Positions 58,201 to 64,000 of a DNA stretch of 64,000 nucleotides are shown piece after piece. Location: NCBI RefSeq assembly GCF_056712565.1, contig NZ_CM160072.1, one strand, 5' to 3'. A program made the position numbers. Numbering within the stretch: the first letter of the stretch is position 1; each line of letters starts with the position of its first letter.

Positions 58201-61200
58201 AGGCGCTGGATCGCGTAGATATTGCCACCATGACCCGCTATATGCAGGAAGGGCATTTCCCACCTGGCAGCATGTTGCCAAAAATCATCGCCAGCCTGAC
58301 GTTCCTGGAACAAGGCAGCAAAGAAGTGATTATCACCACGCCGGAATGCCTGCCTGCGGCGCTACGCGGCGAAACGGGCACCCATATTATTAAAACCTAA
58401 GGACGTAAGATGAAAGAAAACAATAGCCGCCGTGAATTTCTGAGCCAGAGCGGTAAGATGGTCACCGCCGCCGCGCTGTTTGGTCCCTCAGTGCCGCTCG
58501 CCCATGCGGGGGTAGCTGGCACCCTAAACTGCGAAGCGAACAACACCATGAAAATCACTGACCCGTATTACTATCTCGATAACGTGCTGCTGGAAACCGG
58601 TTTTGACTACGAAAATGGCGTGGCGGTGCAGACCCGCACGGCGCGCCAGACTGTGGAAATTCAGAACGGTAAAATTGTTGCCCTGCGCGAGAACAAGCAG
58701 CATCCGGACGCCACGCTGCCGCACTATGACGCTGGCGGTAAGCTTATGTTGCCCACTACTCGCGACATGCATATTCATCTCGACAAAACCTTTTACGGCG
58801 GACCGTGGCGCTCACTCAATCGCCCTGCAGGCACCACCATCCAGGACATGATTAAGCTCGAGCAAAAAATGCTGCCGGAACTGCAACCCTACACTCAGGA
58901 GCGGGCAGAAAAACTGATCGATTTATTGCAGTCGAAAGGCACCACCATTGCCCGCAGCCACTGCAATATCGAACCGGTTTCCGGCCTGAAAAATCTGCAA
59001 AATTTGCAGGCGGTGCTGGCGCGACGTCAGGCGGGCTTCGAGTGTGAAATCGTCGCCTTCCCGCAGCACGGTTTGCTGCTGTCGAAATCGGAACCCTTAA
59101 TGCGCGAAGCGATGCAGGCGGGGGCGCATTACGTCGGCGGGCTGGACCCGACCAGTGTTGATGGCGCGATGGAAAAATCCCTCGACACCATGTTCCAGAT
59201 TGCACTGGACTACGACAAAGGCGTCGATATTCACCTGCACGAAACCACTCCGGCAGGCGTAGCGGCCATCAATTATATGGTTGAAACAGTGGAGAAAACG
59301 CCGCAACTGAAGGGCAAGCTGACCATCAGCCACGCCTTTGCGCTGGCAACGCTCAATGAGCAACAGGTAGATGAACTGGCGCACCGGATGGCGGCGCAGC
59401 AAATTTCTATCGCCTCGACGGTGCCGATTGGCACGTTGCATATGCCGCTCAAACAACTGCACGACAAAGGCGTAAAAGTGATGACCGGCACCGACAGCGT
59501 TATCGACCACTGGTCGCCTTACGGCCTGGGCGACATGCTGGAAAAAGCCAATCTCTACGCGCAGCTCTATATTCGTCCTAACGAACAGAATTTGTCCCGT
59601 TCGCTGTTTTTAGCCACTGGCGATGTATTGCCGCTCAACGAAAAAGGCGAGCGTGTGTGGCCTAAAGCGCAGGATGACGCCAGCTTTGTGCTGGTGGACG
59701 CCTCCTGTTCCGCCGAGGCGGTGGCGCGTATCTCGCCGAGAACGGCGACGTTCCATAAAGGGCAACTGGTGTGGGGGAGTGTGGCAGGTTGATACGAACT
59801 TGATATGTCTGCAACGGTGAACAGTAAGAGATTTAAGCCCCAGGGAGTGGGGCATCAATGGTTTGCTAATGAATGATCCTGAACTTTATAATCTCCGGGC
59901 ATAATTTCCAGGGGATTATTTGAGAGAAATACACAAAAGTGAGTTTTAACAAAGGTATTTATCAAGCCATAAATGTGACCTGCTTCGGATAAAAAGATTA
60001 AACATAGAAAAACCAATGATCCTCTTGCTGATGGTTATCAACAGTAATTAAGATGTGATTTGTTTTTCCGTAATCGCGAAAATATTCTCATGACCATAAA
60101 AGAAAAAATCTCACAAAAATATCCCCATGCTTCCTTTTGTACTTTTGGCGATTCAGCAGCGTTGGCCGATCACCTCGCAACGTTGATTGCGACTGGTGTT
60201 AAAACAGCTTCCTGTGGTTCGCTGGCGGGATGTATTGAAGACAACGCATTTCCGATGATTGGGGAGTATAAGATTGTAGAAAATAGCCGTGGTGAGCCTG
60301 TCTGTGTTATCAGAGTAATTGGCCTGCATTTACTGCGCTTTTCTGATGTCACCGCGGAGCTTGCCCGTAAGGAAGGTGAAGGTGACCTCAGTCTTGAATA
60401 TTGGCGTAATGAACACCGTCGTTTTTTCCAGGCAGAAGGATGCTATTCACCCGAAATGGACGTTATCTTTGAAGAATATGCCCTTATTGACGTTGTGTAG
60501 ATAACTATTTTTCTACGCGAAATAAGCTCACAAACATAAAGTATCGCTAATTTTGTTTATTTTGCTATTTTTTACGTGATGATTGTCACACTTATTGTTA
60601 CTGCCCGTTTTGTCCATATTTATAACCAAATTTTTAATAGCTGCCTGAAATAGGGCTGTTTATTCTGCATAAAAATATTCGAAAATTCTTATTCTCTCCA
60701 GCGCGCTAATTTGGGCGAACACTTCCTGACTACCCTGCAATGAGGCTGAAATGATGAATAAACGTTTTGTTATCAATATGGTGTCTTCGCTGTTATTAGG
60801 CGCTGCGCTAATTTCTGCGCCGCTCCAGGCCGCGGAAAAAGTCGTGGTGAATATCTCTAAAGTCGATGGTATGCCGTGGTTTAATCGCATGGGCGAAGGT
60901 GTGGTTGAGGCGGGTAAAGCCTTTGGTGTTAATGCGTCACAGGTGGGGCCTTCAAGTACTGATGCTCCACAACAAGTTAAAATTATTGAGGATTTAATCG
61001 CCCGTAAGGTTAATGCAATTACAATTGTGCCAAACGATGCCAACGTGCTGGAACCGGTATTCAAAAAAGCGCGAGATGCCGGAATTGTGGTTCTGACCAA
61101 CGAATCCCCCGGTCAGCCAAGTGCTAACTGGGATATCGAAATCATTGATAACGAAAAATTTGCCGCTGAATATGTTGAGCATATGGCGAAACGCATGGGT

Positions 61201-64000
61201 GGCAAGGGCGGCTATGTGATTTACGTGGGTAGTTTGACCGTGCCGCAGCATAACTTATGGGCTGACTTGCTGGTGAAATACCAGAAAGAGCATTACCCGG
61301 ATATGCATGAAGTTACCCGCCGCATGCCGGTTGCCGAGAGTGTGGATGACTCACGTCGTACTACACTGGACCTGATGAAAACCTATCCTGACTTGAAAGC
61401 GGTTGTCTCCTTTGGTTCAAACGGTCCGATTGGCGCGGGACGTGCAGTGAAAGAGAAACGGGCGAAAAATAAAGTCGCAGTCTATGGCATGATGATCCCT
61501 TCACAGGCGGCATCACTGATTAAAAGTGGTGATATCACCGAAGGGATTACTTACGATCCGGCCTCTGCAGGTTACGCACTCGCGGCCGTCGCCAGCACGT
61601 TGCTGAAGGGTGAAGAGATCAAACCTGGATTAGAAATGCAGAATCTGGGTAAGGCCGACGTAGATATGGATAAGCGAATTATCCGTTTCCATAAGGTATT
61701 ACTGGTCAACAAAGACAATATCGACTCACTTTATTAATCCATTTCTTCGGGGCGAAAGCCCCGATTCTTATTGCCAGGGGATGTTATGGAAACCTTCCTT
61801 TCCCTTCGTCATATCAACAAAACGTTTCATGCCACGCGAGCGCTGCGCGATGTTTCTCTCGACTTTATGTCGGGTGAAGTGCACTGTCTTGCCGGGCAAA
61901 ACGGCTGTGGTAAATCGACGTTGATTAAAATTATGTCCGGTGTTTATCGCCCGGATGAGGGAGCGGAAATTACGCTTGGTGGGAAAAACTGGTCAAAGCT
62001 GACACCCGCCGCTTCGGTGGCGCAGGGGATTCAGGTGATTTATCAGGACCTCTCTTTATTTCCTAACCTGAGTGTCTGGGAGAATATCGCCGTGAATCAC
62101 TATCACCACGGTCTGTTTGTTAACCGACGTCGTCTGCGTGAGGTGGCGCAGGCGGCAATGACCAGTATTAACGTCACATTGCCACTGGATACGCTCGTTT
62201 CTGAGCTTTCAATTGCCCGCTGTCAGCTGGTGGCAATTTGCCGTGCACTGGCGCAGGACGCACGGTTGATCGTGATGGATGAACCAACCGCTTCGCTGAC
62301 CCATCAGGAAGTGCAAGGGTTATTACAGGTGGTGCATCAATTGCGGGAACGCGGGATCTGCGTGGTCTTCGTCAGTCATCGTCTGGAAGAAGTGATGGAA
62401 GTTTCCGACCGTATTTCAGTGCTGAAAGATGGTGAGCTGGTCGGGACCTTTCCGGCCGCAGAGATGACCACAAAACAACTCGGTTTTCTGATGACCGGCC
62501 AGGAGTTTGAATATCAGGTGCGAGAGTTGTGGCAGGGAAAATCCAGCACCCCGGTGCTGGAGGTGCGTAATTTAAGTCGTCATGGGGAATATCTAAATAT
62601 TAACTTGCGGGTGGAAGCGGGCGAAGTGGTATCGATTGTTGGCCTGCTTGGTGCGGGGCGCACGGAATTATGTCTGAGTCTGTTTGGTATGACCCGACCG
62701 GATGCTGGCGAGATCCTCATCAACGGCCAGCTGGTTACACTGCATAGTAACCAGGACGCCATCCGCCACGGTATTGGTTATGTTTCGGAAGATCGCATGT
62801 CGCGCGGTTTGGTGATGGCGCAATCTATTGAAGACAACATCATTAGCACTGTTTTTCACAAGGTAAAAGATCGCTTCGGCTTTCTGAGTGAAGCTAAAGT
62901 GTGTGACCTGGTGGACAGGCTAATCAAGGCATTGACCATCAAAGTCTCTGATCCTCATCTCCCGGTGAATACGCTTTCTGGTGGTAACGCGCAGCGAGTA
63001 TCGATCGCCAAATGGCTGGCGATTGGGCCACGACTGTTGATTCTCGATAGCCCGACAGTCGGTGTTGATATCGCCAACAAAGCAGGAATATACGGCATTA
63101 TCAGCGATCTGGCGGCTCATGGCATTGCGGTATTGATGATCTGCGATGAAATTGAAGAAGCGTGGTATCAAAGCCACCGGATTTTGGTAATGCAAAAAGG
63201 TCAGATCACCCATAGCTTCCTGCCTGACAGCAGTTCTCAGGCCAGGATTGCGGAGGTGGTAAATGGCTGAACTGAAAAAACGCCATGAATTCTGGCTGGC
63301 ATTACTGATTGTGGTGCTGTTTGTTGGCCTTGCCTGGCGCAGCGACGAGTTTCTGACATTCGGTAATTTGTACGATCTCGCCAATAACTATGCCATGTTG
63401 ACTATTCTCGCCTGTGGTTTGTTTGTGGTGTTAATTTCCGGTGGGATTGATATTTCGTTTCCGGCAATGACCATCATTGCGCAATACGGCATGGTGCTGC
63501 TGCTGCAAAAAATTGGTGGCAACTTTGCTGTCGCGTTTGCCCTGGCGGGCGGCATCGGCATTTTACTTGGCTTAATTAACGCCTTACTGGTTAATCGCCT
63601 ACGGGTGCCTTCTATCATCATCACTATCTCGACGCTGAATATTTTTTATGGCCTGCTGTTATGGTTGAGTAAAGGTGTGTGGCTGTACGACTTTCCGCCG
63701 TGGTTTGAGCAGGGGGTAATGTTGTTCAAGTACACCGATGCTGATGGCTATGACTATGGCCTTGGTCTGCCGCTGATCGCCATGATTACGGTGGTGCTGC
63801 TGACAGCGTTTATCATGAATTTCACCAGTGTAGGGCGCAAAATTTATGCCCTTGGCGGGAACCGCGAATCAGCCAGTCGCATCGGCTTTAGTGTGCTGAA
63901 ACTGCAACTTTTCGTCTATGGCTATATGGGATTGATGTCTGGTGCTGCGGGTGTAGTGCAGTCGTGGACGGTGATGACTGTCGCCCCCGATTCTCTTCTG

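What the first reader, a model, noticed from the sequence alone, without database searches (positions are those of the whole stretch)
59793..64000. ASCH-domain gene and LsrB-like ABC transporter follow yahJ instead of the K-12 gene order
After yahJ the sequence continues with a small ASCH/PUA-like protein and a periplasmic-binding-protein plus dual-ATPase plus permease ABC transporter. The binding protein resembles the autoinducer-2/ribose family. This order differs from the one recalled for K-12 (yahK onward), suggesting another strain-variable segment. The substrate cannot be inferred from sequence.
Basis: partly seen in the sequence, partly recalled or inferred. Interest (0 to 1): 0.35.

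Follow-up and report, generated by a model that had tools for sequence, protein, structure and literature searches.

The report
Known Aau sugar transporter; K-12 lost it
The genes after yahJ are an uncharacterised small ASCH protein plus the published Aau transporter, which imports D-ribulose and L-arabinose; K-12 still holds fragments of both, so K-12 lost this segment.

Summary
After yahJ (58410-59792) come:
- an ASCH-domain gene (60090-60500);
- a periplasmic binding protein (60754-61737);
- a double ATPase (61786-63270);
- a permease, cut by the window end.
In UTI89, which matched window 57000-64000 at 100%, a second permease and then yahK follow.

The transporter is not new. Its binding protein differs by one residue from AauA of EHEC O157 (PDB 9I1M). 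AauA belongs to the published Aau system (O-island 17, Z0415-9; Cottam et al. 2024, 2025). That system depends on AraC and is induced by L-arabinose. AauA binds D-ribulose at about 2 uM and L-arabinose at about 600 uM. All six ligand-contacting residues are kept here. It is not an LsrB: it scores 111 bits against a cut-off of 384, and keeps 1 of 6 AI-2 residues.

The segment is strain-variable, but in the opposite direction to the one implied.
- K-12's yahJ-yahK spacer holds the 3' end of the ASCH gene, a decayed aau promoter and the last 70 nt of the second permease.
- 2213 of 5426 complete E. coli genomes carry the cassette.
- 2759 carry the same two-deletion scar.

Small additions from this work: a conserved CRP/AraC site arrangement upstream of aauA, and araC or araBAD next to aau orthologues in other genera. 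The ASCH gene's function is unknown.

Verdict: already known, low interest.

The parts
58410..59792 (+). yahJ (amidohydrolase family), the left flank shared with K-12
   Evidence: ORF of 460 aa. RefSeq annotation in UTI89 and K-12.
59793..59854 (+). First 62 nt downstream of yahJ, retained in K-12. Includes the hairpin-like GCCCCAGGGAGTGGGGC. The left breakpoint of deletion 1 follows it.
   Evidence: blastn of the K-12 spacer against UTI89: K-12 L002 8440-8570 matches window 59724-59854 at 93%.
59855..60452 (+). Segment missing in K-12-type strains (deletion 1, about 600 nt): the ASCH upstream region and about 88% of the ASCH gene
   Evidence: No counterpart in the K-12 spacer apart from 23 nt of filler. 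Present at >=80% coverage in 2213 of 5426 E. coli genomes.
59863..59892 (+). Sigma-70 promoter-like site (TTGCTA-18-TATAAT, 10/12) upstream of the ASCH gene. A candidate only.
   Evidence: Consensus scan. One site was found against 3.0 expected, so the count is not significant by itself.
60090..60500 (+). ASCH-domain protein, 136 aa (YhfF/COG4405-type). Function unknown.
   Evidence: Pfam PF04266, E 7e-22. PDB relatives 1T62 and 3S9X are uncharacterised. O157 copy: 2 aa differences. The last 48 nt plus 22 nt downstream survive in K-12.
60501..60753 (+). aau promoter/leader region. It lies within the roughly 300 bp upstream that the published AraC-dependent reporter used.
   Evidence: Reporter design and araC dependence: PMC11127945. 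Cross-genus alignment A3 shows two conserved blocks.
60575..60590 (+). CRP-like site CGTGATGATTGTCACA (9/10 of TGTGA-N6-TCACA). Inferred.
   Evidence: GTGA...TCAC is invariant across E. coli, Klebsiella, Franconibacter and Mangrovibacter. It lies a fixed 11-12 nt before the AraC-like site in 31 of 43 Aau-type loci.
60602..60618 (+). AraC I1-like half-site TGCCCGTTTTGTCCATA, with a perfect TCCATA box. Inferred.
   Evidence: Pattern match, not significant by count alone. TCCATAT is invariant in alignment A3. Pasteurellaceae orthologues have a perfect TAGC-N7-TCCATA at the same place.
60623..60639 (+). AraC I2-like half-site TAACCAAATTTTTAATA, 21 bp after I1. Weak, inferred.
   Evidence: 7/10 match at the canonical 21-bp repeat spacing.
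60754..61737 (+). aauA, periplasmic D-ribulose/L-arabinose binding protein, 327 aa. The in-frame ATG at 60751 gives the 328-aa numbering of PDB 9I1M.
   Evidence: PDB 9I1M: E 1.8e-213, one mismatch. K37, W43, E118, H167, E196 and S223 are all present. Ligand data: PMC12307932.
61786..63270 (+). Fused double ATPase of the Aau transporter, 494 aa (Z0416-7 in EDL933)
   Evidence: Two ABC_tran domains. Three aa differences from O157. Locus description in PMC11127945.
63263..64000 (+). First permease (Z0418 equivalent), cut by the window end. The full gene ends at window-equivalent 64234. The second permease and yahK follow outside the window.
   Evidence: BPD_transp_2. UTI89 annotation.

Best explanation
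The segment holds two units.

**Unit 1: the Aau transporter.** This is aauABCD, the accessory L-arabinose uptake system described in EHEC as O-island 17 (Z0415-Z0419).
- It is a binding-protein-dependent importer of the CUT2 sugar class.
- AauA captures alpha-D-ribulose with micromolar affinity, and L-arabinose about 300-fold more weakly.
- The two permeases and the fused double ATPase move the sugar inward.
- Transcription needs AraC plus L-arabinose. I infer that it runs from a CRP/AraC-I1-I2 promoter at 60575-60639.
- Imported D-ribulose is phosphorylated by AraB and enters the pentose phosphate pathway.
- All of this was shown experimentally for the EHEC copy. It is inferred for this B2 copy from 98-99% nucleotide identity and intact reading frames.

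**Unit 2: a small ASCH-domain gene of unknown function.** It has its own upstream region. In E. coli it is always present or absent together with aau. It is never found next to aau in other genera.

**How the locus evolved.** The order yahJ-ASCH-aauABCD-yahK is the older state in E. coli. The K-12 order arose by two deletions: about 0.6 kb removing most of ASCH, and about 4.5 kb removing aau. These left recognisable fragments. That single scar allele is now found in about half of E. coli genomes, on different flanking backgrounds.
For: **Identity with Aau**
- AauA here matches PDB 9I1M with one mismatch over 327 residues.
- All six ligand-contacting residues are kept (residues from PMC12307932).
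- The other three proteins differ from O157 by 1-4 residues.

**Function of Aau**, as published
- ITC Kd is 1.98 uM for D-ribulose and 598 uM for L-arabinose.
- There is a crystal structure with alpha-D-ribulose.
- The promoter is silent in an araC deletion mutant.
- AraB phosphorylates D-ribulose.
- A mutant has a fitness defect in the mouse gut.

**Promoter**
- GTGA-N6-TCAC and TCCATAT are the conserved blocks in an otherwise 62%-identical alignment across four genera.
- A composite of CRP site, 11-12 nt gap and AraC half-site occurs in 31 of 43 Aau-type loci and 0 of 7 Rbl-type loci.
- araC or araBAD lies beside aau orthologues in Providencia, Budviciaceae and Pasteurellaceae.

**Deletion in K-12**
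- The K-12 spacer holds the ASCH 3' end (94% identity) and the last 70 nt of permease 2 (98%).
- It also holds a decayed promoter remnant that ends just after the CRP-like site.
- The remnant encodes ALWGTLLLCFIQARGMLGLDRVV. All but the last two residues are conserved at the permease C-terminus in Klebsiella and Franconibacter.
- Breakpoints are identical in K-12, AR24.2b and the B2 strains R14 and U13A, with no indel in 421 columns. The SNPs in the yahJ-proximal flank of R14 and U13A match the B2 window sequence.
- Escherichia sp. E2593 shows the intermediate state: intact ASCH plus the aau-deletion scar.

**Counts**
- 2213 of 5426 genomes have the cassette.
- 2759 of 5426 have the scar.
- The part of ASCH lost in K-12 is present in the same number of genomes, 2213.
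Against: - No experiment has been done on this B2 allele. AauA here has D where EHEC has V at residue 199 (327-aa numbering). That residue is not a reported ligand contact.
- The AraC and CRP sites are inferred from motif conservation only. The single-motif match count in the window is at chance level (45 found, 48 expected).
- 12 of 43 Aau-type loci lack the composite.
- No hit named E. albertii, E. fergusonii or E. marmotae appeared among the 80 loci kept from the species-representative scan. The cassette may therefore still have been acquired horizontally before E. coli diversified.
- The shared scar in E2593 could reflect recombination between lineages rather than common descent.
- Perfect co-occurrence of ASCH and aau could reflect a functional link that I have not tested.
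Confidence: 0.9

Rival explanations
1. The cassette is a recently acquired genomic island (O-island 17) inserted between yahJ and yahK in pathogenic lineages. K-12 shows the original empty site. This is how the published papers describe it.
For: - The papers call it 'horizontally acquired' and 'pathogenicity island-encoded'.
- The four-gene cassette sits in unrelated contexts in Klebsiella and Yersinia.
- No named E. albertii or E. fergusonii hit appeared.
- The B2 and O157 copies are more alike (98-99% nucleotide identity) than the flanking yahJ (95%) and yahK (97%).
Against: - The K-12 'empty site' contains in-frame 3' ends of the ASCH gene and of permease 2, plus a decayed aau promoter. An insertion cannot create these.
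- There are no integrase, IS, tRNA or direct-repeat boundaries.
- GC content of the transporter genes is about 0.49-0.53, ordinary for E. coli.
- A lineage about 10% divergent in DNA (L030) also has aau next to yahK.
Confidence: 0.08
2. The transporter is an LsrB-type autoinducer-2 importer, as the RefSeq product name 'autoinducer 2 ABC transporter substrate-binding protein' suggests.
For: - RefSeq product name.
- LsrB is the second-best NCBIfam hit.
- LsrB structures appear among the PDB hits at E about 1e-21 to 1e-24.
Against: - The LsrB equivalog score is 111 bits against a cut-off of 384.
- Identity to E. coli LsrB is 29%.
- Of the six AI-2-contacting residues, only K35 is kept: D116E, D166Q, Q167H, P220F, A222S.
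- No lsrK, lsrR, lsrF or lsrG lies nearby.
- The near-identical protein binds D-ribulose in a crystal structure.
Confidence: 0.01
3. The ASCH gene and aau form one functional module: for example, the ASCH protein processes a modified substrate delivered by the transporter. That would explain why they are always present or absent together in E. coli.
For: - The same number of genomes, 2213 of 5426, carries each.
- They are adjacent and on the same strand.
Against: - None of the 78 aau-type or Rbl-type loci from other genera, nor the divergent Escherichia locus L030, has a complete ASCH gene within 9 kb. L030 keeps only the last ~100 nt of ASCH.
- ASCH homologues are widespread in Enterobacterales; their genomic contexts were not examined.
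- Escherichia sp. E2593 keeps an intact ASCH without aau.
- A 253-nt spacer with its own AraC-type promoter separates the two.
- The co-occurrence is explained by a single two-deletion allele accounting for almost all aau-negative genomes.
Confidence: 0.05

Closest known systems
Aau (AauABCD) accessory L-arabinose uptake / D-ribulose ABC transporter of EHEC O157:H7 (O-island 17, Z0415-Z0419; PDB 9I1M)
   Same: - Same locus between yahJ/ASCH and yahK.
- AauA is 326/327 identical. The ATPase and permeases differ by 1-4 residues.
- The promoter is near-identical: the CRP-like site differs at one spacer position and the I1-like site is identical.
- All ligand residues are kept.
   Different: - The host is a phylogroup B2 extraintestinal lineage (UTI89/APEC O1 type) without the LEE.
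- One substitution in AauA (D199 here, V in EHEC).
- No experiments exist on this allele.
Rbl D-ribulose utilisation locus of Citrobacter rodentium (ABC transporter plus dedicated D-ribulokinase)
   Same: Same four-gene transporter architecture. The binding protein is about 60% identical in the group I take to be Rbl-type (Citrobacter amalonaticus, Pluralibacter, Serratia).
   Different: - Rbl-type loci carry an FGGY kinase directly after the second permease.
- They lack the CRP/AraC composite.
- Published work says Rbl responds to D-ribulose metabolism, not to L-arabinose.
- I did not compare directly with the C. rodentium sequence.
LsrACDB autoinducer-2 transporter
   Same: Same transporter class (CUT2) and the same Peripla_BP_4 fold family. 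The lysine that contacts the ligand is shared (K35 in LsrB, K37 in AauA).
   Different: - 29% identity.
- Five of six AI-2 residues are replaced.
- No lsr kinase, repressor or processing genes nearby.
- Different ligand.
AraFGH, the canonical AraC-regulated L-arabinose ABC transporter
   Same: Depends on AraC and L-arabinose (published). The ATPase and first permease score best against the AraG and AraH models, below their cut-offs.
   Different: - The binding protein matches RhaS and LsrB best; AraF was not among its eight NCBIfam hits.
- It has two permease genes instead of one.
- Its preferred ligand is D-ribulose.
YqfB-type ASCH N4-acetylcytidine amidohydrolases (for the ASCH gene)
   Same: ASCH domain, small single-domain protein. 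The motif lysine is kept (GVKTASCG).
   Different: - The motif Thr/Glu is replaced by Ser and the Arg by Gly.
- It carries an EGEGD segment like PDB 1T62 and 3S9X, which have no assigned function.

Membership tests
Aau (AauABCD) transporter of E. coli | Binding protein orthologous to AauA (PDB 9I1M) | tested here: met
   phmmer E 1.8e-213, one mismatch over 327 residues. One aa difference from the O157 copy.
Aau (AauABCD) transporter of E. coli | D-ribulose-coordinating residues K37, W43, E118, H167, E196, S223 | tested here: met
   All six are present at the published positions (residue list from PMC12307932).
Aau (AauABCD) transporter of E. coli | Four-gene order: binding protein, fused ATPase, two permeases, at the O-island 17 position upstream of yahK | tested here: met
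   UTI89 and O157 annotations are collinear. Only the first 738 nt of permease 1 lie inside the window.
Aau (AauABCD) transporter of E. coli | AraC- and L-arabinose-dependent transcription | not testable with these tools
   Shown for EHEC by reporter assays. Here there is only a conserved CRP/AraC-like site arrangement.
Aau (AauABCD) transporter of E. coli | Micromolar D-ribulose binding and uptake | not testable with these tools
   Published for the EHEC protein: Kd 1.98 uM. Inferred here from near-identity.
LsrB autoinducer-2 binding protein | Score above the NCBIfam LsrB equivalog cut-off (NF011937, 384 bits) | tested here: not met
   111.3 bits.
LsrB autoinducer-2 binding protein | Six AI-2-contacting residues K35, D116, D166, Q167, P220, A222. 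The list is recalled from Pereira et al. 2009. Residue types at these positions were confirmed in E. coli LsrB. | tested here: not met
   Only K35 is kept. The other five are E, Q, H, F and S in AauA.
LsrB autoinducer-2 binding protein | Linked lsrK/lsrR/lsrF/lsrG genes | tested here: not met
   None in the 31-kb UTI89 locus. K-12 lsrB is followed directly by lsrF and lsrG.
RhaS rhamnose ABC transporter binding protein | Score above the TIGR02637 equivalog cut-off (342 bits) | tested here: not met
   136.7 bits.
YqfB-type ASCH amidohydrolase (ASCH gene) | ASCH domain | tested here: met
   PF04266, E 7e-22, 78.5 bits against a cut-off of 21.2.
YqfB-type ASCH amidohydrolase (ASCH gene) | Octapeptide motif G-x-K-x-x-(T/E)-x-R with catalytic Lys, Thr/Glu and Arg | tested here: not met
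   The sequence reads GVKTASCG: Lys is kept, Ser replaces Thr/Glu and Gly replaces Arg (translation; motif from the preprint read). Alignment was by eye on the motif only.
Horizontally acquired genomic island | Empty target site in strains that lack it, mobility genes or repeat boundaries, and deviant composition | tested here: not met
   - The 'empty' site holds gene remnants.
- No integrase, IS or tRNA is annotated, and there is no Rfam hit.
- GC content of the transporter genes is 0.49-0.53.

The most novel reading that the evidence does not exclude
Aau (O-island 17) may not be a pathogen-specific acquired island. It may instead be an old member of the AraC regulon.
- The transporter type sits inside ara gene clusters, or behind a fixed CRP/AraC promoter, from Pasteurellaceae to Enterobacteriaceae.
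- On this reading it was already in place between ASCH and yahK before E. coli diversified.
- About half of E. coli, including K-12, carries one ancient two-step deletion allele.
- That allele has spread or persisted across phylogroups. Its aau-deletion part is shared with an unclassified Escherichia lineage.

The association with LEE-positive strains would then reflect retention versus loss, not gain.
Probability: 0.55. Interest if true: 0.3.

Novelty: already known. Interest (0 to 1): 0.15.

Why it matters
For the scan, this finding can be closed. The transporter's identity, ligand, regulation and role in vivo are published, and the RefSeq name 'autoinducer 2 ABC transporter substrate-binding protein' is misleading.

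Two modest points go beyond the papers:
1. The K-12 arrangement is a deletion scar. 'Acquired island' is therefore the wrong model for interpreting the presence/absence pattern and its link with LEE-positive strains.
2. The AraC/CRP promoter and the ara-cluster linkage are conserved across families. Arabinose control therefore looks like an old property of this transporter type rather than a feature specific to EHEC.

About 41% of complete E. coli genomes, including ExPEC lineages such as UTI89 and APEC O1, carry the cassette essentially unchanged.

Tried and rejected
- A global alignment of the K-12 spacer against the whole UTI89 interval gave a degenerate result. I replaced it with local alignments and a four-way MAFFT alignment.
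- The AraC half-site pattern alone, across the whole window, is at chance level: 45 matches against 48 expected. Only the cross-genus footprint and the fixed spacing give it weight.
- The Rfam scan of 57000-64000 found nothing.
- The intrinsic terminator scan of 59700-61000 found nothing.
- A literature search for PDB 3D02 found nothing.
- Neighbours of aau in Klebsiella and Yersinia are unrelated genes: a tRNA synthetase paralogue, a flavodoxin-like protein, a LysR regulator, a type I restriction subunit, an acetate kinase, a thiolase. They give no pathway clue.
- L090 is an error-rich assembly and was ignored.
- No structure prediction was run, because a solved structure of the near-identical protein exists.

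
Full report
**1. What is there**

Window 57000-64000 is 100% identical to E. coli UTI89, APEC O1, ATCC 11775 and other phylogroup B2 genomes. Window coordinate = UTI89 locus L001 coordinate + 44999.

The ORFs, the RefSeq annotation and the domain scans give this order:
- yahI;
- yahJ (58410-59792);
- a 298-nt spacer;
- an ASCH-domain gene (60090-60500; PF04266, E 7e-22);
- a 253-nt spacer;
- a Peripla_BP_4 binding protein (60754-61737);
- a fused double ATPase (61786-63270);
- a BPD_transp_2 permease from 63263, cut by the window end.

In UTI89 a second permease and then yahK follow. 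K-12 MG1655 has yahJ followed directly by yahK, with a 376-nt spacer.

**2. Identity of the transporter**

The binding protein passes no NCBIfam equivalog cut-off. RhaS scores 137 bits against 342, and LsrB scores 111 against 384.

Against solved structures, it matches PDB 9I1M ('sugar-binding protein') with a single mismatch. It is about 93% identical to the Klebsiella protein 3D02.

9I1M is AauA, from Cottam et al., Nat Commun 2025 (PMC12307932). AauA is the binding protein of the Aau 'accessory L-arabinose uptake' system of EHEC. The system is encoded on O-island 17 as Z0415-Z0419 (PMC11127945). The published facts, are:
- The promoter is induced only by L-arabinose and is silent without araC.
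- AauA binds D-ribulose with Kd 1.98 uM and L-arabinose with Kd 598 uM.
- The crystal shows alpha-D-ribulose held by K37, W43, E118, H167, E196 and S223.
- Imported D-ribulose is phosphorylated by AraB.
- An aau mutant is outcompeted in the streptomycin-treated mouse gut.
- Carriage is high in phylogroups B1, E and D, and partial in B2.

In the window protein all six ligand residues are present. Compared with an O157:H7 genome, AauA differs at one residue, the ATPase at three, and the permeases at one and four. Nucleotide identity is 98-99%.

This is the same system in an extraintestinal B2 lineage. Function here is inferred from near-identity, not tested.

**3. Not an LsrB**

- AauA is 29% identical to E. 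coli LsrB.
- The six AI-2-contacting residues are K35, D116, D166, Q167, P220 and A222. I recalled this list from Pereira et al. 2009 and confirmed the residue types at those positions in LsrB. Only the lysine is kept in AauA.
- No lsr accessory genes are nearby.
- The RefSeq name 'autoinducer 2 ABC transporter substrate-binding protein' is a family-level label only.

**4. Direction of the difference from K-12**

The K-12 yahJ-yahK spacer is not an empty site. It contains, in order:
- the first 62 nt downstream of yahJ (93% identity);
- 23 nt of filler;
- the last 48 nt of the ASCH gene with its stop codon, plus 22 nt downstream (94%);
- about 60 nt that align loosely to the aau promoter, ending just after the CRP-like site;
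- the last 70 nt of the second permease gene with its stop codon (98%), running on into yahK.

The permease remnant encodes ALWGTLLLCFIQARGMLGLDRVV. All but the last two residues are conserved at the C-terminus of the orthologues in Klebsiella and Franconibacter. It is therefore a fragment of a real gene.

K-12 is thus derived by two deletions. One covers about 0.6 kb (window 59855-60452). The other covers about 4.5 kb (window about 60595 to window-equivalent 65115).

**5. Population picture**

Among 5426 complete E. coli genomes:
- 2213 (41%) carry at least 80% of the 5.1-kb ASCH+aau segment.
- 2759 (51%) carry at least 80% of the K-12 scar.
- The piece of ASCH lost in K-12 is present in the same number of genomes, 2213.

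ASCH and aau are therefore all-or-none in E. coli.

The scar has identical breakpoints in K-12, AR24.2b and the B2 strains R14 and U13A, with no indel in 421 columns. The SNPs in the yahJ-proximal flank of R14 and U13A match the B2 window sequence. This points to one deletion allele sitting on several backgrounds.

Two other Escherichia genomes add states:
- **Escherichia sp. E2593** is 89-95% identical in DNA to UTI89 here. It has yahJ, an intact ASCH, the aau-deletion scar with the permease remnant, then yahK. Its scar shares an 18-nt gap and the left breakpoint with the K-12 scar.
- **'E. coli' SCPM-O-B-8794** is about 90% identical in DNA. It has the pdeL region, the last 100 nt of ASCH, aauABCD, then yahK. 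It lacks yahB-yahJ.

Both indicate that ASCH-aau-yahK predates the K-12 arrangement.

The published papers call the locus horizontally acquired and do not mention remnants.

One caveat applies. No hit named E. albertii, E. fergusonii or E. marmotae appeared among the 80 loci kept from the species-representative scan. Acquisition before the E. coli radiation is therefore not excluded.

**6. Regulation (inferred)**

I aligned the region upstream of aauA from E. coli, the divergent Escherichia, Klebsiella, two Franconibacter and two Mangrovibacter. Overall identity is only 62%, yet two blocks are invariant: GTGA-N6-TCAC and T-TCCATAT.

In window coordinates these are:
- a CRP-like site, CGTGATGATTGTCACA (60575-60590);
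- 11 nt later, an AraC I1-like half-site, TGCCCGTTTTGTCCATA (60602-60618);
- a weaker I2-like site 21 bp further on (60623-60639).

A composite of a CRP site (at least 8/10), a gap of 11-12 nt and an AraC half-site (at least 7/10) is present upstream of 31 of 43 Aau-type orthologues tested. These include Yersinia, Aeromonas and Pasteurellaceae; several Pasteurellaceae have a perfect TAGC-N7-TCCATA. The composite is present in 0 of 7 loci of the ~60%-identity group.

The single motif is not enriched in the window as a whole. The argument rests on conservation and spacing.

**7. Context in other genera**

The four-gene cassette is widespread: 78 loci in other genera, plus a 99%-identical contig filed under a Bacteroidales MAG and the divergent Escherichia locus.
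- None of these loci carries a complete ASCH, yahJ or yahK beside it, apart from yahK in the divergent Escherichia locus L030.
- In Klebsiella and Yersinia the neighbours are unrelated genes.
- In Providencia, Limnobaculum, Budvicia, Leminorella and many Pasteurellaceae, araC or araBAD lies directly beside it.
- In the ~60%-identity group, an FGGY kinase follows the second permease. This matches the published description of the Citrobacter rodentium Rbl locus. I did not compare with that sequence directly.

Arabinose control therefore looks like an old property of the Aau type.

**8. The ASCH gene**

- It is a 136-aa protein of the YhfF/COG4405 type. It is widespread in Enterobacterales at 50-65% identity, and at 86% or more only in Escherichia.
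- Its nearest solved structures, 1T62 and 3S9X, have no assigned function.
- Compared with the ASCH octapeptide of the YqfB-type N4-acetylcytidine amidohydrolases (G-x-K-x-x-T/E-x-R), it reads GVKTASCG. The lysine is kept, Ser replaces Thr/Glu, and Gly replaces Arg.
- It has its own upstream region with one promoter-like match.
- My best guess is a small nucleoside- or RNA-directed hydrolase or binding protein unrelated to Aau. Confidence is low.

**9. Verdict**

- The transporter is an already characterised system.
- The points not in the papers are modest comparative additions: the K-12 scar, the single deletion allele, the conserved CRP/AraC arrangement and the ara-cluster linkage.

Interest is low.

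Noticed in passing
window 57297-57449 (yahG-yahI spacer): The spacer holds REP-type palindromic units (GCCGGATGCGGCGTGAACGCCTTATCCGGCCTAC, then an inverted copy). This explains why the 57000-64000 query hit a median of 33 places per E. coli genome. K-12 has a longer version, annotated there as the doubtful ORF yahH.
   Followed up: partly
L001 (UTI89) 21325-21945, outside the window: UTI89 lacks yahL between yahK and yahM. K-12, O157 and AR24.2b all have it. This is a second presence/absence difference just downstream.
   Followed up: no
L001 (UTI89) 23402-24988, outside the window: prpR, the regulator of propionate catabolism, is annotated as a pseudogene with an internal stop in UTI89.
   Followed up: no
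window 53478-59792 (yahE, fdrA/yahF, yahG, yahI, yahJ): Precomputed Pfam labels on the E2593 copy name these AllH, AllF and AllG, plus a carbamate kinase and an amidohydrolase. They form a paralogue set of the allFGH/allK-type genes, with no known substrate.
   Followed up: no
L003 (SFEK01000152.1, 4.7-kb contig): A contig 99% identical in protein to E. coli aauABCD is filed under a 'Bacteroidales bacterium' metagenome-assembled genome. It is most likely a binning contaminant.
   Followed up: no
L030 (NZ_JAATUR010000022.1, 'E. coli' SCPM-O-B-8794): This genome is only about 90% identical in DNA to UTI89 over 9 kb. It lacks yahB-yahJ entirely, with the pdeL region joined to the last 100 nt of the ASCH gene. 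It is probably a non-coli Escherichia lineage labelled as E. coli.
   Followed up: partly
L001 versus L083 (UTI89 versus O157): The ASCH+aau genes are 98-99% identical in DNA between B2 and O157, whereas the flanking yahJ is 95% and yahK 97%. This could reflect stronger constraint or more recent exchange of the cassette.
   Followed up: no
One search hits H34 and H48: A few genomes carry IS150 or IS66 insertions inside the aau cassette. These are independent inactivation events.
   Followed up: no
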